Positions 1,463 through 43,011 of a stretch of DNA of 61,230 nt are shown in pieces. The stretch lies in IMG/VR virus record IMGVR_UViG_3300007734_000738, positions 1 through 61,230 of that record. One strand, 5' to 3'. Position 1 is the stretch's first letter. Every line of letters begins with the position of its first letter. Under the pieces are notes generated by a model, which saw nothing but the letters and a program-made list of their open reading frames with translations, was not told the origin of the DNA and did not search any database. Origin of the DNA: a virus (lineage: Duplodnaviria; Caudoviricetes). The position numbers were made by a program, and so were the translations under genes.

Positions 1463-1463
1463 G

Positions 1464-3184: not shown

Positions 3185-3192
3185 AGATCCCC

Positions 3193-27310: not shown

Positions 27311-30300
27311 ATGGCTGATGCACCTCGGTTCTCTGTCTCAGGGGACCAGATCGTTGACACCTCGACGGGCAAACCCGTTTCTCCAGATCTCTTCAATCGC
27401 ACGTCGACCCCGCAAGAGAAAGCGCAAATCGGTCGTGATCTCGCGTCCCGCTCCTTGATGACGAATCAGGAGGGGGAAGGTGGATCGGCGACAGTTGATG
27501 AGGACCTCGCATCATCCTCCACAGAGGTCCCAGTAGAGGCTCCAGCGGGCGCGACTGCCCCAACACCGACCGTGACCCCCGAACCCGTTCCCGTGGCTCC
27601 CGAACGCGCGGGCGAATCCGTGCGCCCTGCCGGTGCGCCACCGTCCCTCAACGAGTTTCTCGCAGCCGCACGTCCGGAGAATCCTCAGTTCGACGACCGG
27701 GAGATTGCGATCGAATACCGACGCGTGTACCCCGAGGCGTCAAAGTTCTACCCGGCACCTGCCATGGAACCATGGATCGCCAAGGCGAAAGAGGCGAATC
27801 CGCAGTTTGACGAGGCGGAACTCAAGAGTTATTACACGGACATCTACGGGGAGCAGGAACCCAAAGTTGAACACGGCGATGTGGTACGAGGGTTCATCGA
27901 ATCGGTCAAGCAAGTTCCGCAATTGGCTTATGGATTGACGGCCGGGGCAGGAGCGGTCGGAGAAAAACTGTTCGGCGAAGGGGGCGGTGCAACGGCACTC
28001 AAACAGTTCGGCGTCGAGAACTATCAACGTATCGCGGCGGATCTCGCGAAGGATACGAAACTCACTGATTCGTTCAACCATTCCTATGAACAGGCGAAAC
28101 AGGGGGACTACGGCGCGCTGGTCGATTGGCTCCAACATGGGTTCGGGTATGTTGGCGGGCAAGCGATCCAACTCTTAGCGACGGGTGCCGTCGGGGGGAT
28201 AGCCGGCAAGGCGATGCTCCAATCCACGGCCGAGACCGTCGCAAAGAATATGATCGCGAAAGAAACGGCCGCACTGGCCGCACAGTCGGCGGGGCGACTC
28301 AGTGCCGAGGAACTGACCAAATTCGCCGTGACGAACGTCGCGAAAAACATGGGGCAGACGCTGGCTGTCGGGGCGACGGCATTGGGCATGGAAGGTGGCG
28401 AGATCTTTGGTGATCTCACCTCAGATGCCGCCCGACAGGGACGCCAACTGAGCGGGGCCGAACTCGCGAAAGCCGGCGTGATGACCGCCTTTGCGGGCGC
28501 GTTAGAATTCGCCGGCGATAAAATCGGACTCGATCTCATTCTCGGAAAATCTCCCATTACGAAGATGCTCGGCACGGCCACAGGCGTGGGCGGCCGATTG
28601 GTACGAGGGACCGAAGCCGCTGCCATTGCCGCGGCGCCGGAAGCTGCAACTGAATTTGGGCAGACGATCGCCGAAGAGTGGGGCAAAGGGCATGACGTCG
28701 TCGGGACCGTCAGCCCCGAGACGTTACGTCAAGCGCAAGATGCCGCGGCCATTGGTGCATTAGGCGGCGCCCTCGTGGGAGGGACGGCTGGCGCGTTACA
28801 GCCGGGTGCCGGAAAAGAACCGCCTCCTGCTGAGACTCCGCCTGTCGGAACGGTGCCGCCTTCTCCGATGGAGCGTGTTGCCCCGGTGTTGAAGGCGACC
28901 TCCGTCGATGAGGCGATCTCGACGGCAGCCAAGCTCGTCGAAACGGCACCCATTACGAGCGCACAACTGGATCAAGCGATCGGCGTACCACAGGCGGCCG
29001 CGCCGGCTCCCTATACGGAATCCCATCTGGCGGCCGATCAAGTCGCGTTCACGCGCATGCTCTCGGAAGGTGGCGTCGGGACTGTTACAACAGATGCCGC
29101 CACGGGGCAGGCGACCTATGACGGCTCACCCATTCGCGTGGTTGACCCCCGTACGCTGCCCGCGACGACTCCTCCCGAGGCGGGGTTGAGCCAAGAAAAA
29201 CTCGATGCGTTGAGTGTCATGGCCCAAGCCTTTGGCAAACGTATTGTCGTGTTTCAGACCGGCGAGAAACTTCCGAACGGTGTCTTCTGGCAATCTGGCG
29301 ATCCGTCGCGAATCTATTTGGCACAAGATACGACGCATGAAGATGCGTTTACGGTCTTCGCGCATGAAGCCATGCACACGATGCAGGGGACGCCCTTCTA
29401 TGAAGCGTACAAACGCACCATTTATGAATCCCGCACGCCAGAAGCCAAGGCGCTCCTGAAAGTTCGACATGGGGAACACCTCTCTGATGCCCAACTCCTC
29501 GAAGAGGCCGCGGCCGATATCGGCTCCACGGAACTCCAGAAGCCCGAAATGTGGGAAAAAGTGTTTGCGAATCTTCGCACGCAGGTTGGCGAGCAACAGG
29601 CGAAGGTTGAAGTCGTGTCCTTCATCGATTCGTTGAAGCAGATCATTCAACGCATCAAAGGGCTGATCAGCACCCGGTCACTCACGGTCAATCAAAAGAC
29701 GCTGACGGAACTCTACGTCAAGGATCTGGAGAAAGTCCAGGACGCACTGGCCGAAGCGGTCGGCAAGACACTCTACGATAAACGGTTCGCGACGCCTGAA
29801 CAAGCCAAAGCGGTCGGAAAGTTGACCCTCGCGAAACGTCCCACGCTTGATCGGACACTGCTCCCTAAGGATGTCGTGGAGACGTTCTCTTCGGTCGCAC
29901 AGGCCCAGCGAGGGGCTCCGGAAGCGGCCATGCGGGCCGTCCAGAAGACGACTGGTGGCGGGCTGCTGTCCTCGGCCGTGGAACGCACCGGCGATCTCCT
30001 GCATCGTATGGTAGAAGGGGCACGTACGGGCACCTCCGGTCGCATGGCTGTGAAAGAGAAAGTCGATGCGCTCCTGACGTCCCTGACGCATGCGTACGGG
30101 TTTGAGAAGGAACACGGAGAAAATCTCGTCGCAAATAAGGCCGATCAACAGGCGGTCGTCGAGGCGTTGAAAACCTACACCCAGACGCATCGCGCGCTTC
30201 CCGTCTACAATCGGGCGCAATGGCTCGCTCGCGCGGCGGCCGTAGCCGTTGGTGAGATGCGCATCAAGGACGCCGTCGCCCATCTCAGGGCATTGAAGAA

Positions 30301-33300
30301 CATGGTGGACTCGGCCGACTTCAGCAAAGAGGCCTTCGCCCATACGCGTCGCGCCGATCGGACGCTGCAACCGTATTTGCAACCCATCCCTGGCAAATTG
30401 ATTGGCATTCAGAAAACCGGTTCGGTGAAGATTCCTGACTTTGAGTTATACAATATCGAGGTCGACATCCCCGGGCACCCGAAAGACTCCACGGTCACCT
30501 CGCAAACGATGGCCGAAGAAGGGTACCGGATTGTCCCGAGTGATTTGGTCAGCGCGAAAGAACTGAAGGAAGAGAAACGGGCGACTGCGCAGAAGACGCT
30601 CGAAGCTGCGAAGAAGGATGAGAAGACCGAACCCGCGAAGGCGGGCGCCGTCCTCAACATCGGACTCAACGTCAACGACGGGTCGACGATCTCGGCGCAA
30701 ACCGCGCTCTCTGCGTTGAAGCTCGCGGGGGCAAAGGTACTCTCGCATACCGTTCGTACCAGTAACACGGAGCCGACCTTGATCGCAGAGATTGCAACCC
30801 CGCTCTCGCCTGAAAAGGCGACGGCGCTGAGTCGTACGTTGAAGCAAGATGCCATCGCGCAACGGTTAGCGGATGGTACCGGTGCGCTCTACGGTCCACA
30901 GGCCGAGAAGTGGGGTCCATTCAACCCTGAGTACTTCCTGGGTCCCGAGGCAAAGCCAACACTCAGCCCGAAACCCACCTCCGGCGATGCGCTCACACGG
31001 TTGGCGCAGGCGCTTCCGACCACGACGTCGCGGCAAGGGACCAAGTTTTTGTTGCCGGATGGTACACGATTGACGTGGAACCCGAAAGGGGGACCACGGG
31101 CGCATTTTTCCTTAGCAGAATCCGCCGGGGTCTGGCTCGATGAAGCGATTCGCGATGGGGCCATCCGCTATGTCTGGCCCGACGGCGTTGAACTGGGACG
31201 CCCCCTGACCACGAAACAGGCCGAAGCGATCGTCGACGATTGGGCCACCGCTGAGCGTGCACTCACCGTCGACATTCGAGACAATCTTGGATCGGTCGTC
31301 GTGTCCCATGACTTTGATGTGCTCGGGCAAGACGTGACACCCTCATTCTTACAAGACTGGGTGAACTTCAATCTGGAGAAAGGCGAAACGCCGCGATTCA
31401 GCCCGAAGTCCACCGCCAAACTTACACACTATAGCGCACAGAAAAACCTGACCGAGATCAGTCCGAAGTTCCACGGCACCGGGCAGATCGGCGCGGAAGC
31501 ACGACGGCAGATGAACGAGGGGAAGGCCTACATCCCGCGGTCCTTCTTCTATCGTGCGGGCACGAAGATCGAACCACGCTTCAAGGGGATGAGCAAGTAC
31601 ACGGTCGAGGTGCCTGAGTCGTCACTGGTCGATCTGTCCACCCTCACGGGTACGCCGACTGAGCGGGAACAGGCCGCGAAGAAGCAAGGCTACAAGGGGT
31701 TCTACAATTCTGAATCCTCGATGCCAAACGTCGTCGCGATGTTTGAACCGGTGAGTGTTTCCAAGCCAACCGGAACTATTACTCACGCATTCATGTTGAC
31801 TGGGGAGGGCCTTCCTTCTGTGACATTTGTCGCCGTGGAAGGACAACAGAATTGGCACAAAGAAGTCATTCCCCATTTGGAACGCATTGTTAAAAACCTT
31901 AGCAGAGAGGTTGCGCGATTCGCAGGATATCAATCGAACGGTCGGATGCAGGATCCGAAACATTTCATTCATGGCACCAACGGCGAACCTGTATCTGAGT
32001 TCACAGACGTTCATGCGAGAGGGAAATTTAATCGCATTATTCTTCACGATGCCCGCACCGAAACTATGTTCAAACCTGGCGAGATAGGAATCGTCGGAGA
32101 AGGGATGGGTCCTCGCTTCTCGCCGAAGGTCTGGTTTTCCGGATTGGGTAATATGCTGTCCGAGAAGATGCCCGCGAAGGCGAGCGTCGAACAGGTCCGC
32201 AATCTCCTGAAGTCACCGGGGGTGAAGCAGGATGAAGTGAAGTGGACGGGCATTCAGGATTATCTCGATAAGCAGACGGGACCGGTCGACAAGCACAACC
32301 TCCTTGCCTGGCTCGCGGCGCATAACGTCGAGATCGAGGAAGTGACAAAGCGAGAGTACACCGGCGAGAAGACGCGTTCGCAACTCCCCGACATGAGTAT
32401 CCAGGAATTTAGCGACGCCTGGAACGCGGACGGTACACATTCAGAATTCCCCGGCGTGCGTATCGTGTCGGTAGACGACGGGGACAACTATGAAGTGCGG
32501 GTTGGCGACCAATGGTTGGCCGGCGATCACGTCTCGCTTGATCAAGAAGCCTCTTCGACGAACGCATTCAATTCGTTCAACCACGCCTCTGAAGCGGCCT
32601 ATGAGTATCTGGTGGCCGAACCCATTCGTCGTGAAGCCGAACAGTACGCAGAGGAAGGCCCACAGACCCGATACGAAGGGTACAAAGAACCAGGCGGAAC
32701 GGACTATACCGAACTGTTGCTGACGTGGAAGAATCCTGCAAGTGGTCCGCGACCCAATGACAAGTTTGAACAGGCCGCTCAAGCACGATATAAGAAATCC
32801 TTCGATGCCCTGAACGAAGCCCAACAACTCGATATTGAAGGTGACTTGGGAGTCGAATCATTTAGCGGAGTGCGTCAAGACATTTTCAAGTCGCAGCACT
32901 TCGACGAACCCGATATCCTCGCCCATGTCCGATTCGATATGCGGACGGATGCGGAGGGAAAGAACGTCCTGTTCCTCGAAGAGGTCCAGAGCGATTGGCA
33001 TGAACAAGGGCGTGAGAAGGGGTACAAACTCTCCGAGAAAGAATCTGAAAGAATTGTCAAAGAAATCGCAGAACTTTCTGTGAAAATAAAATCGACCAAC
33101 TACCGCGACGAAGAAGCGAGCAATGAGGCCAGTCAGCTCATGGACCGTCGTTTGGACTTACAGCAAAAACTATATTCTGGAATTCCAGACGCCCCCTTCT
33201 CCAAGACCTGGCCGGAACTCGTGATGAAACGCATGCTTCGCTACGCGGCCGAGCACAACGTCGACCGGTTGGCCTGGACCACGGGGACGATGCAGAATGC

Positions 33301-36300
33301 GCGGTACTGGTTGTCGAAGCATATCGATCGGTTGATTGTGATGGAACAAGACCCCGGTCGCTACCTTGTGACTGCATTCAGAAATGGCAATTATTTGAAA
33401 CGAGTCGGCCGACAGTCAGTTTCCGACATGGAAGGTTTGATTGGGAAAGAACTGACACAAAAGGTATTGAACAAATTTACCACTAAAGATTTTTATGACG
33501 GTTTAGACAATGATCTTGGTCCGCAAGTTGAGCTTTCAGGTCTCGACCTCGAAATGGGCGGATCCGGCATGAAGTATTTCTACGACCAGATGCTGCCGAA
33601 GTTTCTAGAGAAGTACCTGAAACGATTCGGGACGAAGGTGGGGACGACGCAGATCGACGTGGGCGAATATATTAACTACGCCTACACAGGCCCTCACTAC
33701 AGCATTGAAGAACTCGTCGCAGGTCGGACGGCCATGCAGTCTGCGCGAGGCGATCTCTATCAGAGCCCTTTTACGCACAGGAGAATGAGTCATCCCATCA
33801 ATACCGTCACGGACGAAAGTACGTTGAAGAATGTCATCGTGGCCATGCGCGAAGGGATGTCATTTGAAGAGGCCTTTCGGCATCACGGTTCAATCGCGCT
33901 CGCAAAGATATTTGGCGGAGAACAAACTCGTATTGTAGAACGAGACCTTACGTCCGTGCATGCGATCGACATCACCGCGCCGATGAAAGACTCGGTGCTG
34001 CAGGGGCAACCGCTGTTCGCGCCGAAGCCGAAACCCGCACCGACCTTCACAGTCGACCAACCCGGCACGCTCGATCGCGTCATCCGCATCCTGCAGGATA
34101 AGGCGATCGACATCAAACGGGTCGTGGAATCGGTGCAGGCGGCCGGGCTCGCGCTACCGGACGAATTGAATCCGGTGCTCAAAGAAGAGATGTACATGAA
34201 GCGGTCGGAGCAACGCGCATCCGACTTCACGAACGACGAGCTACGTCCGCTGGTCAAACAGATGCAATTGTCGAAGATGACGCTCGAACGAGTGGATCAG
34301 TATGCGCTTGCGCGCCACATCATCACCGACAAAGTCAACGCCCATCTCCAGTCGATTAACCCCGATCTCGCAGGGGCGCCAGCCTACGATCGTCTCGCCG
34401 GGATGACCGATCAAGAGGCCCAGGCGATTCTCTCAGGCCCCGACGCGAAGGTGCTGGAGAGTCTGGCCAAGCGGATCGATGCCATGGTTGAGAAGACACG
34501 CGACCTCATGGTGGACTATGGGCTGGAGAAGCAGTCCACGATCGATGCGTGGCGGAAAACCTATCAGCATTACGTCCCCCTCCATCGCGAAGGCTTCGAG
34601 GAGGAAGGTCATCCAACCGGTACCGGTCGTTCGGTGCGCGGGTCGACCGTCAAAGGACGCACCGGGTCCGGGCTCGGGGTGACGAACGTCCTCGCCAACG
34701 TGGCACAAGCCCGTGATCAGATCATCACGCGTGGAGAAAAACAGCGCCCCGTCATCGCGATGGCCGGTCTGTTGATGCTCCATCCGAACCCGGAGATTGC
34801 CACACTCGATAAGCCGGCGCAGATTCAGATGACGGATCCCCAGACCGGTCTGATCACGACGGTCCCTGGCAACCTGACGAACTACACCGTCCCGACCGTG
34901 CGACGGTATGACCCGGTCGATCGGGTCGTCAAGACCTACCCGGACCCCATGTACAAAGGGCGCGACAATGTCGTGAACTTCCGCGTAGACGGGGTCGACT
35001 ACGCCATCGTCTTCAATGAACGGAATGAACGGGCGATGGAAGCCGCCAAAGCCTTTAAGGAATTAGAGACGCCGAAACTCAACGGGATCATGGCGGCCGT
35101 GGCCCCCTATACGCGCTACCTCGCCTCGATCAACACCCAGTACAATCCAGTGTTCGGTATCGTGAACTTCGTCCGCGATGCGCAGTTCGCGATGATTGCG
35201 TTGGACTCTACGCCACTTGCCGGGATGAAGGCGGAGGTGTTGAATACCGCCCGCAAATCCTTGGCGGGTATCTATCAAGACGCGCGCGCCGTGCGATTGG
35301 GACGGCACCCGAACTCGCAGACTGCACAGATGTGGGAGCGGTTTCAACACGTCGGTGGGCCAACCGGCTATCGGGATCTGTTCTTTTCCAGCACCGACCG
35401 CGGCGCGGAGATTGAACGCATGCTCAAGCCTAATGATCTCGGACTGATCACTGGCCCCCAAGCGTTGGGGAAACGGCTCGAAGAGACCTGGCTCCTCCAG
35501 ACCTTGTCGGATTACAACACGACGATGGAAAATTCCATTCGACTTGGGGTGTTCACGACGGCTGTGCAGCACGGGATGAGCGATATTCAAGCGGCGTCCT
35601 ATGCGAAAAATATCACCGTGAACTTTAACAAGAAAGGGCAGATCGGCGCCCAGATGGGTAGTCTGTTTGCCTTCTTCAACGCGAACGTCCAGGGGACGGC
35701 GCGCATTGCTGAGACGGTTTTTGAACGAACGCCAACCGGGGTGCAACTCAGCGCCATCGGGAAAAAGATTGTCGTGGGTGGCATGCTCGCGGGGATCCTT
35801 CAGACCTTTGTACTCGCGATCTCCGGATTCGGCGATGAGGAACCGCCAGAATACATCAAAGTGAGGAACCTCGTGATCCCGGTGCCAGGGACGAAGGCAG
35901 GGTATCTCCTCCTGCCGATGCCGCTTGGGTTCAATCTCCTGCCGAATATTGGTCGAGCTGCAGCTGAAGCCGTGCGCGCCGGTGTGGAGGGGAAGGATAT
36001 CAATCCGCTCAAACGCGGGACCAATCTGATCGGCGCGATCTATGGCACCTTCTCGCCCTTGGGCGGTACTGGCGGACCGATTCAGGAACTGCTCCCCACG
36101 GTGGCCGATCCGATTGCCGCGGTGGTGTCGAACAAAGATTGGACCGGGAAGTCGATCTCGAAAGAAGATGTCTCAACGCTGGATCCCACGCCCGGTCATA
36201 CCCGGACGCGCGATACGGCTAGTTTTTGGGCGACGTTCTTGTCGAAGGGGATCAACTGGGCGACGGGAGGGACGAAGTATACTCCCGGTGTGCTCAGTCC

Positions 36301-36769
36301 TAGCCCGGACGCGATTGACTATTTGATCGAACAGGTGACGGGAGGGATAGGACGCGAACTCTCGAAGGGGTCCCAAGTCTTGCAGGCGGCCATCACAGGA
36401 GAGGAAGTGCCCTTTCACAAGGTGCCACTCCTCGGTCGCTTCGCCGGTAGTGCGTCTGGGAGTACCGCCACACGGTCGACGTTCTATGACAACGTGAAGG
36501 CGGTCAATCTCGCCTACCGCGAGTTCGAAGGACGCGCGAAAGATCGGACGGGCGATGCCCACGAGTTCCTCCGTACGCATCCGGAGGGGCGCCTCCGTGA
36601 GGCCGCGATCAGCATTGAACGGACGATTGGGCAGTTGAACAAGGTCAAGAAGGATCTCGTCGAGAAGGGGGCGCCTCGCGCTGAGATTCGTCTGCGCGAG
36701 GCCCAAATCACGGGTCTAATGAATCGCTTTAATCAGACGGTGGAGATGCAACGGAAGGGGATGCCGTAG
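27311..36769 (+). CDS. Giant (3152 aa) polyvalent internal virion / ejection protein
   Basis: Membrane-like Gly/Ala region, HEAMH (HExxH) near 29363, several modules, LEEVQSDWH domain, LPD38-like C-terminus (NKDWTGKSI, SPDAIDYLIEQVTGGIG). Confidence 0.85.
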   Translation: MADAPRFSVSGDQIVDTSTGKPVSPDLFNRTSTPQEKAQIGRDLASRSLMTNQEGEGGSATVDEDLASSSTEVPVEAPAGATAPTPTVTPEPVPVAPERAGESVRPAGAPPSLNEFLAAARPENPQFDDREIAIEYRRVYPEASKFYPAPAMEPWIAKAKEANPQFDEAELKSYYTDIYGEQEPKVEHGDVVRGFIESVKQVPQLAYGLTAGAGAVGEKLFGEGGGATALKQFGVENYQRIAADLAKDTKLTDSFNHSYEQAKQGDYGALVDWLQHGFGYVGGQAIQLLATGAVGGIAGKAMLQSTAETVAKNMIAKETAALAAQSAGRLSAEELTKFAVTNVAKNMGQTLAVGATALGMEGGEIFGDLTSDAARQGRQLSGAELAKAGVMTAFAGALEFAGDKIGLDLILGKSPITKMLGTATGVGGRLVRGTEAAAIAAAPEAATEFGQTIAEEWGKGHDVVGTVSPETLRQAQDAAAIGALGGALVGGTAGALQPGAGKEPPPAETPPVGTVPPSPMERVAPVLKATSVDEAISTAAKLVETAPITSAQLDQAIGVPQAAAPAPYTESHLAADQVAFTRMLSEGGVGTVTTDAATGQATYDGSPIRVVDPRTLPATTPPEAGLSQEKLDALSVMAQAFGKRIVVFQTGEKLPNGVFWQSGDPSRIYLAQDTTHEDAFTVFAHEAMHTMQGTPFYEAYKRTIYESRTPEAKALLKVRHGEHLSDAQLLEEAAADIGSTELQKPEMWEKVFANLRTQVGEQQAKVEVVSFIDSLKQIIQRIKGLISTRSLTVNQKTLTELYVKDLEKVQDALAEAVGKTLYDKRFATPEQAKAVGKLTLAKRPTLDRTLLPKDVVETFSSVAQAQRGAPEAAMRAVQKTTGGGLLSSAVERTGDLLHRMVEGARTGTSGRMAVKEKVDALLTSLTHAYGFEKEHGENLVANKADQQAVVEALKTYTQTHRALPVYNRAQWLARAAAVAVGEMRIKDAVAHLRALKNMVDSADFSKEAFAHTRRADRTLQPYLQPIPGKLIGIQKTGSVKIPDFELYNIEVDIPGHPKDSTVTSQTMAEEGYRIVPSDLVSAKELKEEKRATAQKTLEAAKKDEKTEPAKAGAVLNIGLNVNDGSTISAQTALSALKLAGAKVLSHTVRTSNTEPTLIAEIATPLSPEKATALSRTLKQDAIAQRLADGTGALYGPQAEKWGPFNPEYFLGPEAKPTLSPKPTSGDALTRLAQALPTTTSRQGTKFLLPDGTRLTWNPKGGPRAHFSLAESAGVWLDEAIRDGAIRYVWPDGVELGRPLTTKQAEAIVDDWATAERALTVDIRDNLGSVVVSHDFDVLGQDVTPSFLQDWVNFNLEKGETPRFSPKSTAKLTHYSAQKNLTEISPKFHGTGQIGAEARRQMNEGKAYIPRSFFYRAGTKIEPRFKGMSKYTVEVPESSLVDLSTLTGTPTEREQAAKKQGYKGFYNSESSMPNVVAMFEPVSVSKPTGTITHAFMLTGEGLPSVTFVAVEGQQNWHKEVIPHLERIVKNLSREVARFAGYQSNGRMQDPKHFIHGTNGEPVSEFTDVHARGKFNRIILHDARTETMFKPGEIGIVGEGMGPRFSPKVWFSGLGNMLSEKMPAKASVEQVRNLLKSPGVKQDEVKWTGIQDYLDKQTGPVDKHNLLAWLAAHNVEIEEVTKREYTGEKTRSQLPDMSIQEFSDAWNADGTHSEFPGVRIVSVDDGDNYEVRVGDQWLAGDHVSLDQEASSTNAFNSFNHASEAAYEYLVAEPIRREAEQYAEEGPQTRYEGYKEPGGTDYTELLLTWKNPASGPRPNDKFEQAAQARYKKSFDALNEAQQLDIEGDLGVESFSGVRQDIFKSQHFDEPDILAHVRFDMRTDAEGKNVLFLEEVQSDWHEQGREKGYKLSEKESERIVKEIAELSVKIKSTNYRDEEASNEASQLMDRRLDLQQKLYSGIPDAPFSKTWPELVMKRMLRYAAEHNVDRLAWTTGTMQNARYWLSKHIDRLIVMEQDPGRYLVTAFRNGNYLKRVGRQSVSDMEGLIGKELTQKVLNKFTTKDFYDGLDNDLGPQVELSGLDLEMGGSGMKYFYDQMLPKFLEKYLKRFGTKVGTTQIDVGEYINYAYTGPHYSIEELVAGRTAMQSARGDLYQSPFTHRRMSHPINTVTDESTLKNVIVAMREGMSFEEAFRHHGSIALAKIFGGEQTRIVERDLTSVHAIDITAPMKDSVLQGQPLFAPKPKPAPTFTVDQPGTLDRVIRILQDKAIDIKRVVESVQAAGLALPDELNPVLKEEMYMKRSEQRASDFTNDELRPLVKQMQLSKMTLERVDQYALARHIITDKVNAHLQSINPDLAGAPAYDRLAGMTDQEAQAILSGPDAKVLESLAKRIDAMVEKTRDLMVDYGLEKQSTIDAWRKTYQHYVPLHREGFEEEGHPTGTGRSVRGSTVKGRTGSGLGVTNVLANVAQARDQIITRGEKQRPVIAMAGLLMLHPNPEIATLDKPAQIQMTDPQTGLITTVPGNLTNYTVPTVRRYDPVDRVVKTYPDPMYKGRDNVVNFRVDGVDYAIVFNERNERAMEAAKAFKELETPKLNGIMAAVAPYTRYLASINTQYNPVFGIVNFVRDAQFAMIALDSTPLAGMKAEVLNTARKSLAGIYQDARAVRLGRHPNSQTAQMWERFQHVGGPTGYRDLFFSSTDRGAEIERMLKPNDLGLITGPQALGKRLEETWLLQTLSDYNTTMENSIRLGVFTTAVQHGMSDIQAASYAKNITVNFNKKGQIGAQMGSLFAFFNANVQGTARIAETVFERTPTGVQLSAIGKKIVVGGMLAGILQTFVLAISGFGDEEPPEYIKVRNLVIPVPGTKAGYLLLPMPLGFNLLPNIGRAAAEAVRAGVEGKDINPLKRGTNLIGAIYGTFSPLGGTGGPIQELLPTVADPIAAVVSNKDWTGKSISKEDVSTLDPTPGHTRTRDTASFWATFLSKGINWATGGTKYTPGVLSPSPDAIDYLIEQVTGGIGRELSKGSQVLQAAITGEEVPFHKVPLLGRFAGSASGSTATRSTFYDNVKAVNLAYREFEGRAKDRTGDAHEFLRTHPEGRLREAAISIERTIGQLNKVKKDLVEKGAPRAEIRLREAQITGLMNRFNQTVEMQRKGMP

Positions 36770-36773
36770 TCCT

Positions 36774-39131
36774 CTAAAATTTCGTTCCTGGTTTTTCTAA
36801 TATAATTGGCCATCTTGCGGTGATCCCCCATTCAGGATGGAGGATGTACATCCACTGCTGTGGCAATTCGTAATCGAAGTTCTGCTGAAACGCCCATTCG
36901 TCCATTCCCTTCACACTGTTGGCCACCCCAACCCCGTTCGCGATATAACTATGGTCTTCGTCAACCGTGATGTTATACACCGGGGCTGCGTGAGGTTCGA
37001 TCCAGGCGTCAGTCACTTTTGCAAATACACTCCCGCCATGAACGAGCGATTTCCATTCGCCCCCTCGGCCTTTGCCTTTCATCCCCATTTCCATTCGTAC
37101 AGGATCATGAATGCTCGGCTGATATTCCTCAAGAATTTTTGCCAACCGTCGGGCCGTATCTCCTGAAAATATCAAAGAATAGGCGTCCGACATACGTCGT
37201 CTCGTAGGGCTGGCTCCGGCCAAAATGCGGTTCACCGAGCTGAAAAATCCACATCGGAGCGCAAGCACTCTCATCTGTTCGATCAGCGAACGAGAGATTG
37301 ATGTCCTGGACACGATGATCGATCGCTTGGCGTCAATCTCCCTTCCGAATTGTGTCGTATGTCCATCCCCGAGTAACCATCCTATGAGAATCTCTTGCTG
37401 GTATTTGGGGTCGAGGGTCATGAGATCTGGACGCAATCGTTTCTCACGAGCCCCTTTCCCGCATAACGCGACCATTCTGTCACACGCCTCTGAGGAATGT
37501 ACGACAACCGATCGGCTCGTCAGTCGTTTGGTCGAAAGAAAATGTTTTGCTTTTCCGAACGCCTTCACGCACTCTTGTGCGATGAAATTGGCGTGGGCCT
37601 CCTCATTACGATGTAATGAGAAGTTCATATGGTGCAGTTTTCCATTGGCTCCCGAAATACTGCCTTCTGCAAGATACCACCCCATCAACCGACAAAAACC
37701 CATAGAAAAAGCGTGATGCTCCACGATCGTCCGATCGCACGGCACTTCAATATAATCAGACGGGGACAGATCTTCCGCCGCAATCCATCGTGCGACGGGA
37801 GCATGCAGAGCTTGAATATGTTTACCACCGATGCTCACCAGGTGCCCCACACTCGAACCTTTAATTGCCCACACCCGGTGATTCGGCGTCAACCGCAACT
37901 CTGAGGCTTTGCTCCCGCACCGCAAGACCACGAGTTGATCCGCTCCATCCCGTGTCATGACGTCAGTCACCTGGCGCACACGTCCTTGCCGACTCACGAC
38001 GCGATCGTGAATCTCAACAGTCTCGATGGGTTTTGTCGTACCGTCCTCCATCGTCACTGGTGTCCCCGATGGGAAACACCCGTTCACGATAATACCCTTC
38101 GCCATCCACAACTGGTGCCAATGACCCATTTTGAGAAAGGTGAATGGCTGGTCGATCGCCATGGCTCGTTTTCGTTTGCGATGGTCCATGATCATCAGCG
38201 GAGACAACGCGCCGGCGATTCCGCTACCGCCTTTGGCCTGGTCCCCGTGTGTCAAACAGGTGATGGTGTCATACACTTTATAGAGCAGATCCGCGCCGTC
38301 CGCGATGTTGAAGTGCACGTCGCGGTTGCCTGCATAATACTTCGCAAGGAATTGGTACAAAATCCATTCGAAATTTTCATACACCCGGTCTTTCGCCACA
38401 GGTTTTTTGTCCCAACGGCCATGATTCCCTACCACGCAGTTCACGTTGATACGAGGAAAATGTTGAAGCAGCAAATCAATGCCGGCGACCAATTGATCCA
38501 TCAAGGCGAGAATGGACTGCGAGATTGGGCATTCGTTGGTCCGGCGCAGTTCTTCATGGATCAGTCCTGAAAAGTTATCTCCTCCGAAATCGAGTACAAA
38601 ATACTCATACTTCGGGTGGGCCATGTGATGAATCAATAGTTCAACGGTCTTTGCGAAGAGCGTCTGTAACCGAGTGTTGGCGATTTTGCGATTGTACGCG
38701 TTCACGCCGTTGATCTGATTAGCTTTGACGATCTCGTCGTAATGGACATCGCTCACGAATAGGCACGGCACACCAGTCGTTGAACCTTTGGTCCGTTTCG
38801 ACAACCATGTAGGGGGTATCACCGGTTTGTCACAGTCGTGAATTAAATTCTTGATCACATGCAGACTGTCGTCGTGCGCGTCGACTCGTTTCATCGCCGA
38901 TTTGAGGTCTCCCTCAAGCCGCGTAATCTGCCGGCGTAACAGATCGGGATTATGCACATCCTCGATCCCCTTCCCAGGCGTGTACCCTTGACGTTTCGCT
39001 TCGCGAATGCGGGCGTCCATCGTATTGCGTGGGACGTTCGCGGACAAGGCGGCCCCGGTGACGGATCCAATTGAGGCCTGGAGATTCACGGCTTCTTGCA
39101 ATAAGGCCGGTGCCGTCGGTTTGGCCGCCAT
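36774..39131 (-). CDS. Calcineurin-like metallophosphoesterase, intein-containing
   Basis: SDVHYDE, GGDNFSG.IHEEL, VVGNHGR, THGD, GHWH, VNG|SVKG. Confidence 0.85.
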   Translation of the reverse strand: MAAKPTAPALLQEAVNLQASIGSVTGAALSANVPRNTMDARIREAKRQGYTPGKGIEDVHNPDLLRRQITRLEGDLKSAMKRVDAHDDSLHVIKNLIHDCDKPVIPPTWLSKRTKGSTTGVPCLFVSDVHYDEIVKANQINGVNAYNRKIANTRLQTLFAKTVELLIHHMAHPKYEYFVLDFGGDNFSGLIHEELRRTNECPISQSILALMDQLVAGIDLLLQHFPRINVNCVVGNHGRWDKKPVAKDRVYENFEWILYQFLAKYYAGNRDVHFNIADGADLLYKVYDTITCLTHGDQAKGGSGIAGALSPLMIMDHRKRKRAMAIDQPFTFLKMGHWHQLWMAKGIIVNGCFPSGTPVTMEDGTTKPIETVEIHDRVVSRQGRVRQVTDVMTRDGADQLVVLRCGSKASELRLTPNHRVWAIKGSSVGHLVSIGGKHIQALHAPVARWIAAEDLSPSDYIEVPCDRTIVEHHAFSMGFCRLMGWYLAEGSISGANGKLHHMNFSLHRNEEAHANFIAQECVKAFGKAKHFLSTKRLTSRSVVVHSSEACDRMVALCGKGAREKRLRPDLMTLDPKYQQEILIGWLLGDGHTTQFGREIDAKRSIIVSRTSISRSLIEQMRVLALRCGFFSSVNRILAGASPTRRRMSDAYSLIFSGDTARRLAKILEEYQPSIHDPVRMEMGMKGKGRGGEWKSLVHGGSVFAKVTDAWIEPHAAPVYNITVDEDHSYIANGVGVANSVKGMDEWAFQQNFDYELPQQWMYILHPEWGITARWPIILEKPGTKF
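36918..38078 (-). mobile_element. LAGLIDADG intein (387 aa)
   Basis: CFPSGTPV start, LTPNHRV, LMGWYLAEGS and LIGWLLGDGH, end PVYNITVDEDHSYIANGVGVAN, +1 Ser. Confidence 0.92.
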
Positions 39132-40099
39132 CAGCGGGCCTTCTTTCGTGCGAGACGATTCGAGGTGGCACGCGCGAGCATCGTACGTACGCGGCGAGTG
39201 AACCCTACCTCGGTGTCGGCGACCGGTGCCATGTCTGGCTTGCGATAAATCGGCCGATCGTCATTATGTCTATTTGCCAAGTCAAACTGCATCATCGCCA
39301 ACGCGTGAAACACTACGGCTGCGAGATGATGCCCTCCGTCAGCGTCCCAATTTTCACCGGTCCAAAACAATTCAGCATGACGTCGAAGGGCGGCATAACT
39401 GAGCGACCACTTATATCCTTTTTCCCAATTCCTTTCAGCGTACAGTCGCGCGCCGAGGCCATAGAGGAGCGCGACTTCCGCCATCGCTTCGACCGGGATG
39501 AGATCGTACCTCAAGGGCTTTTGTCTCTTTTGCGCTCCGGTGTTCGGATCGACGCAAGTAGTCTGAGGCAGCGCGCAAGGTGCAGGACGATTCGGAGAAC
39601 CAGGTGAGTCCGAAATTACATCTAAAACAGAGGAGGCCTCGAACAGTGCCGACGCAGTGGGAGTGGTCAACATGGAGCGCAACTCGGCCGGGAAGTTTTT
39701 TGCAAATAGCACATCGCCCACTCTGCGAGTGGAGAATAACTCGGTATTCGGCGAGCGTGATCCCGAACCGTCGCTTGAGCGCGTCATTTCTTCTTCGGTC
39801 TTTGCATCCATAGCTTTCTCCTCGTTGTAGTAAGGGGCGTGCATGCAGTATTCTTGCCCGCCAGCACAGCATCCATCGCACCCATGCGTGCGATCCGTCG
39901 TCCGATCGTCCGGGTCAGGATGCCCTATTCCGTGCGGACAGATCCGCTCCATGATGCGACGGTCGGTTCGCCAATGGGTCGGGAACTCTCGCATCGTATG
40001 GTCGGACGGATTGTGGATCGGGCATGGTCCGGCGGTACATTGGCCGCGCTCATGCACGTAAATCTGTTGCCCGGTGCCGGTGTGATAGAGGTCGCTCAT
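39131..40099 (-). CDS. dATP/dGTP diphosphohydrolase (DUF5664-like) in frame with an upstream Cys/His-rich domain; internal start likely at 39811
   Basis: KPLRYDLIP...GARLYAERNWEKG..WS.SYAALRRH...GGHHLAAVVFHAL; N-terminal CPIHNPSDH...ERICPHGIGHPDPD; GAGGAG before ATG 39811. Confidence 0.75.
   Translation of the reverse strand: MSDLYHTGTGQQIYVHERGQCTAGPCPIHNPSDHTMREFPTHWRTDRRIMERICPHGIGHPDPDDRTTDRTHGCDGCCAGGQEYCMHAPYYNEEKAMDAKTEEEMTRSSDGSGSRSPNTELFSTRRVGDVLFAKNFPAELRSMLTTPTASALFEASSVLDVISDSPGSPNRPAPCALPQTTCVDPNTGAQKRQKPLRYDLIPVEAMAEVALLYGLGARLYAERNWEKGYKWSLSYAALRRHAELFWTGENWDADGGHHLAAVVFHALAMMQFDLANRHNDDRPIYRKPDMAPVADTEVGFTRRVRTMLARATSNRLARKKAR
39435..39800 (-). CDS. Endonuclease VII overprinted in the -1 frame of the diphosphohydrolase gene (start mechanism uncertain)
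   Basis: LKRRFGITLAEY..ILHSQSGRCAIC...LHVDHSH..GTVRGLLCFRCNFGL..F......LRAASDYL is a complete EndoVII signature. Confidence 0.85.
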   Translation of the reverse strand, partial: DRRRNDALKRRFGITLAEYRVILHSQSGRCAICKKLPGRVALHVDHSHCVGTVRGLLCFRCNFGLTWFSESSCTLRAASDYLRRSEHRSAKETKALEVRSHPGRSDGGSRAPLWPRRATVR

Positions 40100-40485
40100 A
40101 CGGCCGCCTTCTTTACATGCGCAAGTTCTTCTCGCCCGCAATAGTTGACGAGCAGATGACGCGCCACATAGTCGAGCAAACTACTGCAGTTCTTAATTCG
40201 ATCATCCCCCTGCACCGGTCCGCCGAGTTCGGCCTTGGTCCCGAGCCACATCTCCCCGATCTCCTCCAGTGGCGCCCCGCCTTGTAACAACTTCGACGCA
40301 AGACGGGCGATCTCGTCCATCATCCAGCGTCGTTCGGCCCCGGTCTTCGCCAACGCGATGAAGATTTCCCCCACGCGCGTCTTCTCGGCATCGTAGAAGC
40401 CGACTGTCAGATAGATCTTACAGGCCCCAATCTTGACGCGGTGCGTGACACTCTCGCGGCGATCCGGCAGTGGGGTTTCGCTCAT
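40096..40485 (-). CDS. Stand-alone TSCPD-like domain (class II RNR C-terminal / NrdJb-like)
   Basis: LPDRRESVTH..KIG..KIYLTVGFY...GEIFI...LLQGGAPLEEI...IKNCSSLLDYV. Confidence 0.7.
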   Translation of the reverse strand: MSETPLPDRRESVTHRVKIGACKIYLTVGFYDAEKTRVGEIFIALAKTGAERRWMMDEIARLASKLLQGGAPLEEIGEMWLGTKAELGGPVQGDDRIKNCSSLLDYVARHLLVNYCGREELAHVKKAAV

Positions 40486-40911: not shown

Positions 40912-42351
40912 CTATGAAGATGTCAAGCGTCTTCGTAATCCGTCCATCAGACAATCCTGAACGGAACGTTTGCTTTCGTGACTCTCGTAGACGTCTTCGT
41001 CAATCGTCCCTCTAGCCACGATTCGATATTCAAAGACGTTTCGATTATAACCGGACTGGGCTTGGCGAACAGAACCGATTCTTTCGAGCATTTGATCAAA
41101 CTGTTCGCCGTTCCAGTCGCTTGAAAATCGAACCAGAATGTTCCCGCCATGCTGAAGCGATAACCCGTGACCGACACTCGCAGGATGGGCCACAAGCATG
41201 GGTATTTTTCCAACGTTCCATCGTTCAAGAATGCCACGTTCCTGGCTAAAATGGACCGCCTTGGGGAATCGTTTTAGAATTCGCGCGAGATCAGATTTGA
41301 ACGTATAGCCGACCAACAGAGGTGCACCACTTGACTCTTCTTGAATTTCCTGTAGCGCATCAAGTTTTTCCACATGCACGTCTGCCCATTTCCGAATACC
41401 AGGATCGTCAGGTCTACCGAGATACGCCGCCCCTGACGCCATCTGTAATAATTTTTGAGTTTTTGCCCCAGCGCTAAACACTTCAATCGGCGACGCCTGG
41501 ATCTCCGTATATAAATTCTTCTCTAATTCTCGGTATTGACGTCGTGCGTCAGGTGGAAGATCTACGTAGATCGTTCGTGTAATGGGCTTCTTCAGATCAA
41601 ACCAATCTTCCGACTTCAACGCCAAGCAGAGATCCTTCACCTGATTCTCAATGTCCTTCTGTGCGGTGTCGAGCGGTTCGCACCCGTACCCGTCGAGCGA
41701 CGGACGGAACCACCGGTTCTTGAACGCCTCAAAGACGCGGCCCAGTCGTGTGCCGAAATCAAGGTAAAAAATCTGACCCCACAAATCGATCAATCCGTTC
41801 GGCGCCGGGGTGCCGGTGAGTTCCACGAAGCGCTCGATCTTGTGTTCGAACATCGCTTTCAAGAGGGCTTTGGGACGGACGCCTCCTTGGCCCTGCACCC
41901 AACTCGTGCCGGTGTTGTTCGTGCGAATGCTTGCACGCAGGCTTTTGAGTTTCGTGGACTCGTCAATCACGACCATCCTGTAGGGCCAATACTCACCCCA
42001 GGTGTTGATCAACCAAATCAGGTTTTCGAAATTGATGGAGTAGATATCGGCCGGCAGACGCAAGGCCTCACGGCGTTGTGTCTCCGTCCCGACGATCGGG
42101 ACGACCGTCAGATCCGATAGATGCGACCACTCCTTCACTTCCGTCGGCCAGACATCTCTCGCGACTCGCAACGGCGCCACCACGAGCACCGGTTTGTCGA
42201 TGAGTCCGGCGAGCTTCATGCGATCGATCGCGGTGAGGGTGGCAACCGTCTTCCCTAATCCCATCCCGGCCCACAGGGCGCACTTCGGATGTGCGATAAT
42301 ATGATCGATCATGAGATGTTGGTACGGTCGCAAGTTTGATTCGTGCAGCAT
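40912..42351 (-). CDS. SNF2-family helicase
   Basis: GMGLGKT, VIDES, LTGTPAPNGLIDLWGQ, HPASVGHGLSLQHGG, RQAQSG. Confidence 0.92.
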   Translation of the reverse strand: MLHESNLRPYQHLMIDHIIAHPKCALWAGMGLGKTVATLTAIDRMKLAGLIDKPVLVVAPLRVARDVWPTEVKEWSHLSDLTVVPIVGTETQRREALRLPADIYSINFENLIWLINTWGEYWPYRMVVIDESTKLKSLRASIRTNNTGTSWVQGQGGVRPKALLKAMFEHKIERFVELTGTPAPNGLIDLWGQIFYLDFGTRLGRVFEAFKNRWFRPSLDGYGCEPLDTAQKDIENQVKDLCLALKSEDWFDLKKPITRTIYVDLPPDARRQYRELEKNLYTEIQASPIEVFSAGAKTQKLLQMASGAAYLGRPDDPGIRKWADVHVEKLDALQEIQEESSGAPLLVGYTFKSDLARILKRFPKAVHFSQERGILERWNVGKIPMLVAHPASVGHGLSLQHGGNILVRFSSDWNGEQFDQMLERIGSVRQAQSGYNRNVFEYRIVARGTIDEDVYESHESKRSVQDCLMDGLRRRLTSS

Positions 42352-42354
42352 GCG

Positions 42355-43011
42355 CTACCGCATCTTCTTCATGTTGTCAGACTGTTTCGCCTCCGGTTCG
42401 ATATCCTCGTAGAGCACCGGGATCTTCTCCTGAAATTCCTTCAACAAGGGGATCGTCACCTCACGCATCTGAGGATGGGCTTCCCGCGTCGTCCGCATGA
42501 GAAAGAAATGCCGCCAGTTCCGCAAATTGTAGGTGGTCACCAAGCGTGACGCGAGCGCATTCGGAAACACCGAACGCGCAATCTGCGGGGTGCATCCTCG
42601 CGCGATCATGCCTCGGTATCCGATCTCGGCTTCTTCAATCCCGATTCGCCATGGCTGGATTTGATCACTCGTCAATCCCGCGGGAAGAATGAACGAGGGC
42701 GGCATCTTTTTCTCATAGTTCACGAACCGCGTCGATTCTTGGGTATACGCCCCGATTCGGTGGCGCACCCATTCATGGGTGATACCCCGATCCACGACGG
42801 CATCGACCGTCACGCTCGCGTGTTCGGTGATCGACCAGTCACCGTGCCCGAGGACGACGGCCCGGAGAAACTTCTCCCAACTGTCCCCCGTCTGGGCGTC
42901 TTCCGATCGATGAGAGATGCGCCCCGCCCATTCAATCTTCTGCAACAAGGCAATGCCAGCGAACACCGAGTTGACGTCGAGCATCTTTGCGTATGGGTTT
43001 ACAAGTAGCAT
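42355..43011 (-). CDS. thyX: FAD-dependent thymidylate synthase
   Basis: HEWVRHRIGAYTQESTRF (RHRx7S), ARSVFPN, NLRNWRHFFLMR, AHPQMR. Confidence 0.92.
   Translation of the reverse strand: MLLVNPYAKMLDVNSVFAGIALLQKIEWAGRISHRSEDAQTGDSWEKFLRAVVLGHGDWSITEHASVTVDAVVDRGITHEWVRHRIGAYTQESTRFVNYEKKMPPSFILPAGLTSDQIQPWRIGIEEAEIGYRGMIARGCTPQIARSVFPNALASRLVTTYNLRNWRHFFLMRTTREAHPQMREVTIPLLKEFQEKIPVLYEDIEPEAKQSDNMKKMR

What the first reader, a model, noticed from the sequence alone, without database searches (positions are those of the whole stretch)
39435..39823. Endonuclease VII overprinted in the -1 frame of a dNTP diphosphohydrolase gene, with a candidate SD-stimulated A_AAG frameshift
Seen: from GAGGAG(39823-39818)-ATG(39811), frame 0 reads MDAK, about 90 aa of Ser/Pro-rich filler, then the DUF5664-like enzyme with no stop. 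The -1 frame over that filler is a complete EndoVII with no good start of its own. A -1 slip at GCA_AAG (39805-39800) gives MDAK-DRRRNDALKRRFGIT..., and the SD lies 14 nt upstream of A_AAG. Established: A_AAG with an upstream SD drives -1 frameshifting in bacteria (IS3 family, B. subtilis cdd). Inference: an intron-less, intein-less homing endonuclease that shares its host's start codon. A missing A from sequencing error is the alternative, but the two domains would still overlap in open frames.
Basis: partly seen in the sequence, partly recalled or inferred. Interest (0 to 1): 0.85.

Follow-up and report, generated by a model that had tools for sequence, protein, structure and literature searches.

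The report
Homing endonuclease gene nested inside a gene
A selfish endonuclease VII gene sits out of frame inside a phage enzyme gene whose own reading frame runs straight through it, a way of invading genes without an intron or intein that recurs in other phages; whether a ribosomal frameshift makes the nuclease here is unproven.

Summary
On the minus strand one frame is open from 40141 to 39131. It holds a Cys/His module starting at ATG 40099, about 89 residues of low-complexity filler, then a PF18909 dNTP diphosphohydrolase domain. A complete PF02945 endonuclease VII core lies in the -1 frame over the filler. Contigs of three runs from three studies reproduce the stretch with no difference, so a missing A is very unlikely.

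The layout recurs without any intein or intron signal in viral contigs L053 and L211 and in Gordonia phages Malisha and Squiddly. L052 and Holliday are insertion-free alleles. The host frame is always EndoVII +1. The three closest diphosphohydrolase relatives carry the same filler.

The frameshift is not supported beyond its motifs. The site and the SD spacing fit, but the motif is not enriched, no structure follows it, and no related DNA could be compared. All eight other nested EndoVII genes have their own in-frame ATG. This copy has also lost the family's usual stop.

A 2025 preprint describes out-of-frame EndoVII genes inside inteins. My seven literature searches found no intein-less case.

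The parts
39131..40099 (-). Whole frame-A open reading frame from ATG 40099 (322 codons plus stop at 39133-39131): Cys/His module, filler, diphosphohydrolase domain. The stop overlaps the ATG of the next gene (TGATG).
   Evidence: called as a 322-aa protein P0217 by one source
39812..40099 (-). Upstream module of an unnamed phage family (HNPSDH..CPHGxGHPDPD..HGCDGCC). Its start overlaps the stop of the TSCPD gene (ATGA). It has no stop of its own here.
   Evidence: 67 related loci. In 41 of the 49 distinct relatives that carry the motif, the frame stops within 25 residues after CDGCC; here 243 residues follow. No Pfam match.
39818..39823 (-). GAGGAG Shine-Dalgarno sequence, 6 nt before ATG 39811. 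It is also the proposed frameshift stimulator.
   Evidence: Strongest predicted anti-SD pairing in the region, -8.9 kcal/mol
39809..39811 (-). ATG in the host frame (frame A). Start of the 226-aa ORF MDAK...
   Evidence: called as protein P0001
39800..39803 (-). A_AAG, candidate -1 slippery tetranucleotide (GCA_AAG at 39805-39800)
   Evidence: Sequence. The site type is described in PMC5009743. Not enriched in the window.
39545..39808 (-). Filler: frame-A reading of the EndoVII cassette. About 88 residues rich in Ser/Thr/Pro, no family match.
   Evidence: Its conserved stretches (RKVGDVLFA, SxLTTxT) mirror the EndoVII motifs GxCAIC and VDHxH.
39435..39806 (-). Endonuclease VII reading frame (frame B, which is A-1), from the first residue that aligns with relatives to the stop at 39437-39435. 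The last 110 nt or so overlap the diphosphohydrolase domain.
39552..39779 (-). Endonuclease VII catalytic core (PF02945 positions 4-81 of 82)
   Evidence: The two Cys pairs, DHxH and N align with T4 endonuclease VII 1e7d. All 16 invariant columns of alignment A3 are kept.
39134..39544 (-). dATP/dGTP diphosphohydrolase N-terminal type domain (PF18909, former DUF5664) plus a C-terminal tail
39872..39881 (-). Weak alternative in-frame starts for EndoVII (GTG 39881, ATG 39872). They lie inside the codons of the upstream HGCDGCC motif.
   Evidence: -3.3 and -3.7 kcal/mol

Best explanation
A compact endonuclease VII homing-endonuclease cassette (ribosome-binding site, short ORF, no intron, no intein) lies inside a protein-coding frame. 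It sits just upstream of the conserved start (TGxQKxQKP) of a PF18909 dNTP diphosphohydrolase domain.

The host frame is the +1 frame of the nuclease gene and is kept free of stops. Ribosomes on the host message therefore read through the cassette and make the enzyme with about 89 extra low-complexity residues, either from ATG 39811 or fused to the upstream Cys/His module from ATG 40099. The nuclease is read from the -1 frame.

Shown:
- the two overlapping frames and their domains;
- the accuracy of the sequence;
- the absence of intein and intron signals;
- the same layout in unrelated host genes, with insertion-free alleles.

Inferred:
- that the filler is translated and tolerated;
- that the open frame is kept by selection;
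- that the nuclease homes.

How this particular copy of the nuclease is expressed is open. My odds are about 0.3 for a -1 shift at GCA_AAG after the strong SD-ATG (or by ribosomes arriving from the upstream module), about 0.2 for a weak own start at 39872/39881, and about 0.45 that it is no longer made.
For: - Domains in two frames.
- Sequence reproduced with 0 differences and 0 gaps in contigs of X4 (depth 33), X6 (depth 16) and X16 (depth 5, covering 39598-40104), from three studies. One of X4 and X6 may be the source.
- L053: EndoVII (176 codons, own ATG) lies wholly inside a 394-codon frame that ends in PF18909. L052 is the EndoVII-free allele, with the same SD and start after the neighbouring gene and the same flanks (PEEVRTTSSTGGQKG / KPSRHDLIP).
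- L211: EndoVII lies inside a 921-codon helicase-methylase frame and splits Helicase_C.
- Malisha and Squiddly: EndoVII (176 aa, E 1.9e-25) lies in the -1 frame of the annotated 619-aa DNA helicase. Holliday has a 431-aa helicase (83.5% identical over the matched parts) without it. 286 of 288 matching phage records lack the insert.
- In L053, L211 and Malisha the EndoVII stop codon sits exactly where conserved host sequence resumes.
- The host frame is EndoVII +1 in all of them. That frame has half the stop density of +2 (3.6 against 7.4, and 4.25 against 8.8, per 100 codons).
- The three closest diphosphohydrolase relatives, P0002-P0004 (53-59% identical), carry the same filler, open.
- Pfam finds Intein_splicing in 5 of 5 terminase genes with nested EndoVII but nothing of that kind in the window, L053, L211 or Malisha. 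Rfam finds nothing.
Against: - The open +1 frame is partly a property of codon make-up. Own-codon synonymous shuffles keep it open in 3.9% (window), 16% (L211) and 35% (L053) of 20000 trials.
- Six free-standing or un-nested EndoVII regions are also stop-free in +1: L183, L187, L199, L331, L332, L384.
- L211 and P0002-P0004 were found because their frames are open, so they are not unbiased tests.
- No insertion-free close relative of this window was found.
- No RNA or protein data exist.
- The structure model of the 226-aa product was too poor to show disorder (mean pLDDT 42).
- The closest cultured relatives begin their PF18909 gene 8-13 codons before the domain, so a separate downstream start (TTG 39514, ATG 39484, both weak) cannot be excluded.
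- Signs that this copy may be decaying: no in-frame start behind its own SD, and the usual stop lost (38 residues after DYL against at most 13 in 12 relatives).
Confidence: 0.72

Rival explanations
1. Programmed -1 frameshift. Ribosomes start at the strong SD-ATG 39811, read MDAK, and a fraction slip back on A_AAG, helped by the still-paired GAGGAG. They then make MDAK-DRRRNDALKRRFGIT..., the nuclease. The rest go on to the diphosphohydrolase. Ribosomes arriving from ATG 40099 could shift at the same place and make a fusion of the upstream module with EndoVII.
For: - The strongest SD in the region (-8.9 kcal/mol) serves an ATG that is one base out of frame with the nuclease, four codons before the first residue that aligns with relatives.
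- A start 14 residues before FGIT is within the range of short EndoVII proteins, which start 8-23 residues before that motif.
- A_AAG is the minimal bacterial -1 site. It is used or tolerated at CGA_AAG in Bacillus cdd and IS1222 (PMC5009743, passages).
- SD stimulators work best 10-14 nt from the P-site codon (bioRxiv 10.1101/2020.04.16.045807, passages). Here the spacer is 12 nt to GCA and 15 nt to AAG.
- The L211 nuclease begins MDAKKEARR from ATGGACGCAAA, like ATGGATGCAAA here.
- The sequence is stable in runs released 2018-2025, and the nuclease core is intact.
Against: - The motif AGGAG-N9-15-AAAG occurs 3 times in the window against 1.66 expected; 25 of 100 shuffles reach 3.
- No structure follows the site (z 0.46).
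- All 8 other nested EndoVII genes have their own in-frame ATG.
- No related DNA was available to test conservation of the site.
- The host bacterium and its tRNA-Lys are unknown.
- The MDAK match is four residues.
Confidence: 0.28
2. Decaying remnant. The nuclease gene lost its in-frame start through an indel or deletion just after its ATG, and it also lost its stop. Its strong SD-ATG now serves only the host enzyme, and the nuclease is no longer made.
For: - There is no in-frame start behind the cassette's own SD.
- Where L053 has the stop (GGT TAA GCC) the window has ACA AAA GCC, giving a 38-residue tail against at most 13 in 12 relatives.
- The N-terminal extension seen in L053, L211 and Malisha (70-94 residues before the core) is absent.
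- Loss of function after fixation is the expected fate of homing endonuclease genes (general knowledge, recalled).
Against: - The nuclease frame is still open for 160 codons, and all 16 invariant columns, the Cys4 set and DHxH..N are kept.
- Short EndoVII proteins of 87-103 aa exist, so a short N-terminus is not a defect in itself.
- A single indel upstream of the core would also have put the upstream module out of phase with the filler, yet they are in phase.
Confidence: 0.4
3. Two ordinary overlapping genes. EndoVII starts at ATG 39872 or GTG 39881, and the diphosphohydrolase starts at TTG 39514 or ATG 39484. The openness of frame A across the nuclease gene is chance.
For: - Weak SDs of -3 to -4 kcal/mol also precede other genes of this phage and other nested EndoVII genes.
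- Cultured relatives begin 8-13 codons before the domain.
- The own-codon shuffle leaves the frame open in 3.9% of trials.
Against: - The same open, in-phase arrangement occurs in L053, L211, Malisha/Squiddly and P0002-P0004.
- TTG 39514 would remove the K-P that is invariant in the four aligned relatives (A2).
- The upstream gene would still have no stop.
- ATG 39872 is a by-product of the GAT-GGA codons of the conserved HGCDGCC motif.
Confidence: 0.12
4. Sequencing or assembly error: one A is missing at 39800-39803.
For: Adding one A would put ATG 39811 in frame with the nuclease.
Against: Contigs of three runs from three studies are identical across the site, at depths 33, 16 and 5. Twelve runs of five studies hold 99-100% of the sampled words. 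These are contigs, not raw reads, so minority variants would not show.
Confidence: 0.02

Closest known systems
[quoted passage not shown]
   Same: An EndoVII-type nuclease is encoded in 'frame 3' (that is, -1) of the host/intein frame. The in-frame reading of that stretch has no recognisable fold. The authors propose origin from free-standing nuclease genes. I found five such terminase inteins in viral contigs (L359, L365, L370, L401, L402), all with the host frame at EndoVII +1.
   Different: There the cassette sits between intein splicing blocks, so the filler is spliced out of the protein. In the window, L053, L211 and Malisha no Hint or intein family is found. The insert is barely longer than the nuclease ORF, so the filler must stay in the host protein or be bypassed by a separate start.
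Free-standing homing endonuclease genes that split a host gene (mobE in nrdA of phage Aeh1; the T4 gene 39/60 cassette with its 50-nt bypass). Recalled, and mentioned in passages.
   Same: An intron-less, intein-less nuclease gene inserted into a coding region of a phage DNA-metabolism gene. In T4 a recoding event (bypassing) travels with the nuclease.
   Different: Those insertions break the host gene into two separately translated genes. Here the host frame stays continuous through the nuclease gene.
F-CphI and other free-standing EndoVII-motif homing endonucleases (PMC6083498; search listing and abstract only)
   Same: EndoVII catalytic motif used for homing in phages.
   Different: Those are encoded between genes, not inside a host frame.
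SD-stimulated -1 frameshifting at A_AAG (Bacillus subtilis cdd, IS1222, E. coli dnaX)
   Same: Z_ZZN site A_AAG preceded by an SD-like GAGGAG at a spacing near the published optimum.
   Different: Here the SD would also be the initiation SD, and the shift would fall at codon 4. No product, conservation or downstream stimulator is shown.

Membership tests
Recombination endonuclease VII (PF02945) | Profile match above the curated cut-off over the whole domain | tested here: met
   67.4 bits against a cut-off of 23.6, positions 4-81 of 82; 69.4 bits in the genome scan
Recombination endonuclease VII (PF02945) | Two Cys pairs (zinc) and the D-H-x-H ... N catalytic residues, as in T4 endonuclease VII | tested here: met
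   Alignment to 1e7d: CAIC, VDHSH and CFRCN align with CLIC, LDHDH and CNLCN. All 16 invariant columns of 13 sequences are kept. The names of the catalytic residues are recalled.
Free-standing homing endonuclease gene | Presence/absence polymorphism between otherwise similar alleles, with a precise insertion | tested here: inconclusive
   Met for relatives: L053 against L052, Malisha against Holliday. Not testable for the window itself, because no close relative was found.
Free-standing homing endonuclease gene | Site-specific cleavage of the insertion-free allele, and gene conversion | not testable with these tools
   Needs a cleavage assay or a co-infection experiment
dATP/dGTP diphosphohydrolase, N-terminal type (PF18909, former DUF5664) | Profile match above the curated cut-off | tested here: met
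   86.5 bits against 27, positions 2-99 of 99; PHROG 801, E 6.9e-33. The enzyme activity was not tested.
Intein | Hint / intein splicing domain flanking the nuclease region in the host frame | tested here: not met
   No Hint, Intein_splicing or Hom_end_hint match in the window ORF at E up to 0.1, nor in L053, L211 or Malisha at E up to 0.01. The same scan finds them in 5 of 5 terminase cases and in the window's own exonuclease gene.
Group I / group II intron | Match to an intron covariance model around the nuclease gene | tested here: not met
   No Rfam match at gathering score in the window, L053, L211 or L221, nor at E up to 1 in 38900-40300
SD-stimulated -1 programmed frameshift site | Z_ZZN slippery site in the zero-frame phase, with an open coding -1 frame downstream | tested here: met
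   GCA_AAG at 39805-39800; the -1 frame carries EndoVII
SD-stimulated -1 programmed frameshift site | SD-like stimulator 10-14 nt 5' of the P-site codon | tested here: inconclusive
   The spacer is 12 nt to GCA and 15 nt to AAG; the published optimum is. Which codon is in the P site at the shift is unknown.
SD-stimulated -1 programmed frameshift site | Conservation of the site in relatives, and a shifted product | not testable with these tools
   DNA of P0002-P0004 was not retrievable and no expression data exist. The motif is not enriched and no downstream structure is found.

The most novel reading that the evidence does not exclude
One strong ribosome-binding site and start codon serve both genes. 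Most ribosomes read MDAK and go on through the filler to make the dNTP diphosphohydrolase. A minority slip -1 on GCA_AAG at codon 4, while the initiation SD is still paired, and make the homing endonuclease. The selfish gene would then need no start of its own and would be dosed by the host gene's translation. More broadly, endonuclease VII cassettes would be a third way, beside introns and inteins, for homing endonucleases to live inside coding sequence: they offer the host an open alternative frame.
Probability: 0.25. Interest if true: 0.85.

Novelty: new variant of a known kind. Interest (0 to 1): 0.72.

Why it matters
Homing endonuclease genes are thought to survive inside essential genes only by hiding in self-splicing introns or inteins, or else by sitting between genes or splitting them. 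These loci suggest a simpler route. The cassette is read through in a second, stop-free frame and leaves a disordered-looking insert in the host protein.

If that is so, three things follow:
- Annotators are missing nuclease genes. Malisha gene 71 and Squiddly gene 64 are annotated only as DNA helicase.
- Odd low-complexity inserts in phage enzymes may be shadows of selfish genes.
- It gives a plausible intermediate for how nuclease genes enter inteins.

Cultured phage pairs (Malisha or Squiddly against Holliday, on Gordonia terrae) make the idea directly testable. A frameshift at codon 4 driven by the initiation SD would be an unusual recoding case.

Tried and rejected
- **Sequencing error.** Rejected on contigs of three runs. 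Only contigs were available, no raw reads, so minority variants cannot be excluded.
- **RNA evidence.** No RNA holder is listed for this stretch. That says nothing about expression.
- **Intein and intron.** Rejected.
- **Close relatives of this phage, to find an empty site.** The scan with the TSCPD protein found nothing. Scans with the diphosphohydrolase and the metagenome scan (80 loci kept of 126) gave no close relative. Of those 80 loci, four held an EndoVII match. None was nested: in L278 and L294 the gene lies upstream in high-GC DNA, and in L226 and L246 it lies elsewhere.
- **Variation within protein clusters.** Too small to use.
- **Structure of the 226-aa product.** Mean pLDDT 42 from a 4-sequence alignment, so not usable. 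No fold search was run.
- **Solved structures.** No PDB relative of the diphosphohydrolase by sequence.
- **T7-like phages with EndoVII under a 'protein kinase' annotation (H70, H51).** These turned out to be free-standing genes.
- **L187.** Its +1 frame is open but the gene lies between genes.
- **In-frame fusion of the upstream module with EndoVII.** None among the 96 hits.
- **Literature.** Seven searches found no report of an intein-less, intron-less out-of-frame nested homing endonuclease.
- **Not run.** Complex prediction, the protein-atlas search and the search of protein representatives were not needed.
Full report
**What is there**

The window is a 61,230-base viral contig, linear and estimated about 80% complete. 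All features below are on the minus strand.

- One frame (A) is open from 40141 to 39131.
- A gene of an unnamed phage family starts at ATG 40099, overlapping the stop of a TSCPD-domain gene by ATGA. It encodes a Cys/His-rich module (HNPSDH..CPHGIGHPDPD..HGCDGCC).
- I found 51 distinct relatives in viral contigs, and 49 carry the CDGCC motif. In 41 of those 49 the frame stops within 25 residues after the motif. Here it never stops.
- Instead it runs through GAGGAG (39823-39818), ATG (39811), about 89 residues with no family match, and then a PF18909 dATP/dGTP diphosphohydrolase-type domain (E 1.3e-24).
- The frame ends at 39133-39131, overlapping the ATG of an exonuclease gene that carries a LAGLIDADG intein.
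- The -1 frame (B) is open from 39914 to 39435. It holds a full endonuclease VII core (PF02945, E 1e-18).
- That core has the two Cys pairs, DHxH and N aligned to T4 endonuclease VII. It keeps all 16 invariant columns of a 13-sequence alignment.

The one omission is that frame A is already open from the upstream gene. One source called the 226-aa ORF from ATG 39811 and another called the 322-aa ORF from ATG 40099.

**Is the sequence right?**

Twelve runs from five studies (lake water and viral metagenomes, released 2018-2025) hold 99-100% of the sampled words of 39300-40200. I laid four runs on 39000-40300. Contigs of X4 (depth 33) and X6 (depth 16) cover all of it and X16 (depth 5) covers 39598-40104, all without a single difference or gap. 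X17 does not cover the site. One of X4 and X6 may be the source sample. A missing A at 39800-39803 is therefore very unlikely. These are contigs, so rare variants would not be seen.

**The same layout elsewhere**

I searched relatives of each part.

- **L053 and L052.** In L053 an EndoVII gene (own ATG, 176 codons, 46% identical to the window's over the core) lies wholly inside a 394-codon frame that ends in PF18909. L052 is an otherwise similar contig without it. The two share the SD and start just after the neighbouring gene, and they share both flanks. L052 reads PEEVRTTSSTGGQKGQKPSRHDLIP. L053 reads PEEVRTTSSTGGQKG, then about 180 residues of filler, then STTGGLKQVKPSRHDLIP. The EndoVII stop (GGT TAA GCC) lies exactly on the V-K before the conserved KPSRHD.
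- **L211.** A scan of 74 distinct EndoVII regions for an open +1 frame turned up L211. There an EndoVII (160 codons; SD AAAGGAG, then 8 nt, then ATG) lies inside a 921-codon helicase-methylase frame and splits the Helicase_C domain.
- **Malisha, Squiddly and Holliday.** The nearest relatives of the L211 nuclease among cultured phages are in Gordonia phages Malisha and Squiddly. The match lies under a gene annotated only as DNA helicase (619 aa), and the nuclease (176 aa, E 1.9e-25) is in its -1 frame. Gordonia phage Holliday has the same helicase (83.5% identical over the matched parts) at 431 aa without the insert. 286 of 288 matching phage records lack it. Again the nuclease stop (GGT TGA ACC) falls on the first conserved host residues (V-EPW). 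The insertion site differs from that in L211.
- **No intein or intron.** None of these host frames has a Hint or intein family or an Rfam intron match. The inserts exceed the nuclease ORF by only about 7 to 25 codons.
- **P0002-P0004.** The three closest relatives of the window's diphosphohydrolase in the large protein collection (53-59% identical) all carry the filler. Its conserved stretches (RKVGDVLFA.., S.LTT.T) are what the motifs GxCAIC and VDHxH read like in the +1 frame. Their S/T-K-P junction is compatible with a TAA stop in the nuclease frame; that is inference, because I had no DNA for them.

**Chance or selection?**

- In two samples of viral-contig EndoVII regions (74 and 79 distinct), the +1 frame has 3.60 and 4.25 stops per 100 codons, and the +2 frame has 7.43 and 8.80.
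- The +1 frame is stop-free in 5 of 74 and 8 of 79 regions, the +2 frame in 0 of 74 and 1 of 79.
- Of the 13 stop-free cases, seven lie inside long host ORFs and six do not (L183, L187, L199, L331, L332, L384; L187 lies between genes).
- At the family's average density, 124 to 176 stop-free codons would be expected in roughly 0.1-1% of genes (my arithmetic from those densities).
- Against this, shuffling each gene's own synonymous codons leaves the frame open in 3.9% (window), 16% (L211) and 35% (L053) of 20000 trials. These genes are built from codons that rarely make +1 stops.
- That is what adaptation would look like, but it could also be lineage composition.
- The stronger argument is that the two halves of each host gene are in phase and joined by an open frame in every case. 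L053 was found without regard to openness. L211 and P0002-P0004 were not.

**The known relative of this arrangement**

Five of the seven nested cases (L359, L365, L370, L401, L402) are terminase large-subunit genes in which Pfam finds an intein splicing domain around the nuclease. That is the architecture reported as new in a 2025 preprint on actinobacteriophage inteins, which describes an endonuclease VII-like nuclease in 'frame 3' of the intein (abstract and passages read, supplements closed). The window, L053, L211 and Malisha are the same trick without the intein, so the filler cannot be spliced out as part of one. My seven searches of the library found no report of that.

**How the nuclease of this window is expressed**

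This stays open.

- All eight other nested EndoVII genes have an in-frame ATG within a few codons of the 5' end of their frame, with SD pairing from -2.8 to -8.2 kcal/mol.
- In the window the only strong signal (-8.9) serves ATG 39811, which is in the host frame.
- The nuclease frame has only GTG 39881 (-3.3) and ATG 39872 (-3.7). Both lie inside the codons of the upstream HGCDGCC motif.

- GCA_AAG sits four codons after that ATG, just where similarity to other EndoVII proteins begins.
- A_AAG is the minimal bacterial -1 site.
- The SD spacer is 12-15 nt, against a published optimum of 10-14.
- Short EndoVII proteins start 8-23 residues before the YGIT motif.
- The L211 nuclease starts MDAKKE from ATGGACGCAAA, much like ATGGATGCAAA here.

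*Against it:*
- The motif is no more frequent than in shuffles (3 against 1.66).
- No structure follows the site.
- No relative's DNA could be compared.

*For decay instead:*
- The usual stop at the junction is replaced (TAA in L053, AAA here), which gives a 38-residue tail that none of 12 relatives has.
- The long N-terminal region of the other nested nucleases is missing.

*Against decay:*
- The frame is open for 160 codons and every conserved residue is kept.

I put the frameshift at about 0.3, a weak own start at about 0.2, and a silent remnant at about 0.45.

**How the host enzyme is made**

The 226-aa product from ATG 39811 has the best start signal. Ribosomes from ATG 40099 would make a 322-aa fusion. 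The upstream module is found fused, at either end, to other nucleotide and nucleic-acid enzymes: DUF6378 in P0034, Metallophos in P0066 and RNase_T in P0014. A fusion is therefore not absurd.

Cultured relatives begin their PF18909 gene 8-13 codons before the domain. L052 has a 45-residue native extension. The N-terminus evidently tolerates additions. The structure model was too poor to say whether the filler is disordered.

**Verdict**

The overprinting reading is supported and generalises to cultured phages, which makes it testable. The frameshift is an attractive but unproven detail of this one copy.

Noticed in passing
L221 2405-2935 (Gordonia phage Malisha OP434458, inside gene 71); L222, same place (Squiddly MN096370, gene 64): A 176-aa endonuclease VII gene is not annotated. 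It lies in the -1 frame of the gene annotated as DNA helicase, whose product carries about 190 S/T/P-rich residues that are absent from phage Holliday's helicase.
   Followed up: yes
L211 2477-2956, inside the frame 1356-4118: An EndoVII gene is nested in a fused SNF2-type helicase / N6-N4 methylase frame of 921 codons. It sits at a different site from the Malisha insertion, although the two nucleases are each other's closest relatives among those I saw.
   Followed up: partly
L359, L365, L370, L401, L402 (about 2150-2800 in each): Terminase large-subunit genes with an intein whose nuclease region encodes an EndoVII in the -1 frame. This is the type described in the 2025 preprint, here in environmental viral contigs.
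   Followed up: partly
window 36774-39131 (-): The exonuclease / metallophosphatase-like gene next door (PHROG 284) carries a canonical intein with Hint and LAGLIDADG_3 matches. Two different selfish elements therefore sit in adjacent genes.
   Followed up: partly
window 39812-40099 (-), and L004-L070: The Cys/His-rich module (HNPSDH, CPHGxGHPDPD, HGCDGCC) has no Pfam or PHROG match. It is widespread in viral contigs and occurs alone or fused at either end to RNase_T, Metallophos, DUF6378 or HTH domains. Its function is unknown.
   Followed up: partly
L053 about 1050-1075 and 1590-1626: The insertion in L053 is flanked by two diverged copies of the host stretch that encodes S-T-G-G-Q-K-G. The downstream copy is recoded (TGGLKQVKP) and overlaps the nuclease's last codons. 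This may be how the occupied allele escapes cleavage.
   Followed up: no
L187 2162-2764: A free-standing EndoVII gene lies between a capsid-like gene and the next gene. Its +1 frame is stop-free over almost exactly its own length (own-codon shuffle P 0.016).
   Followed up: partly
window 27311-36769 (+): A single open reading frame of 3152 codons lies on the opposite strand and ends five bases before the exonuclease gene's stop.
   Followed up: no
window 40099-40485 (-), 40912-42351 (-), 42355-43011 (-): Neighbouring genes encode a TSCPD-domain protein, an SNF2-type helicase and ThyX. The locus lies in a nucleotide-metabolism and replication module.
   Followed up: no
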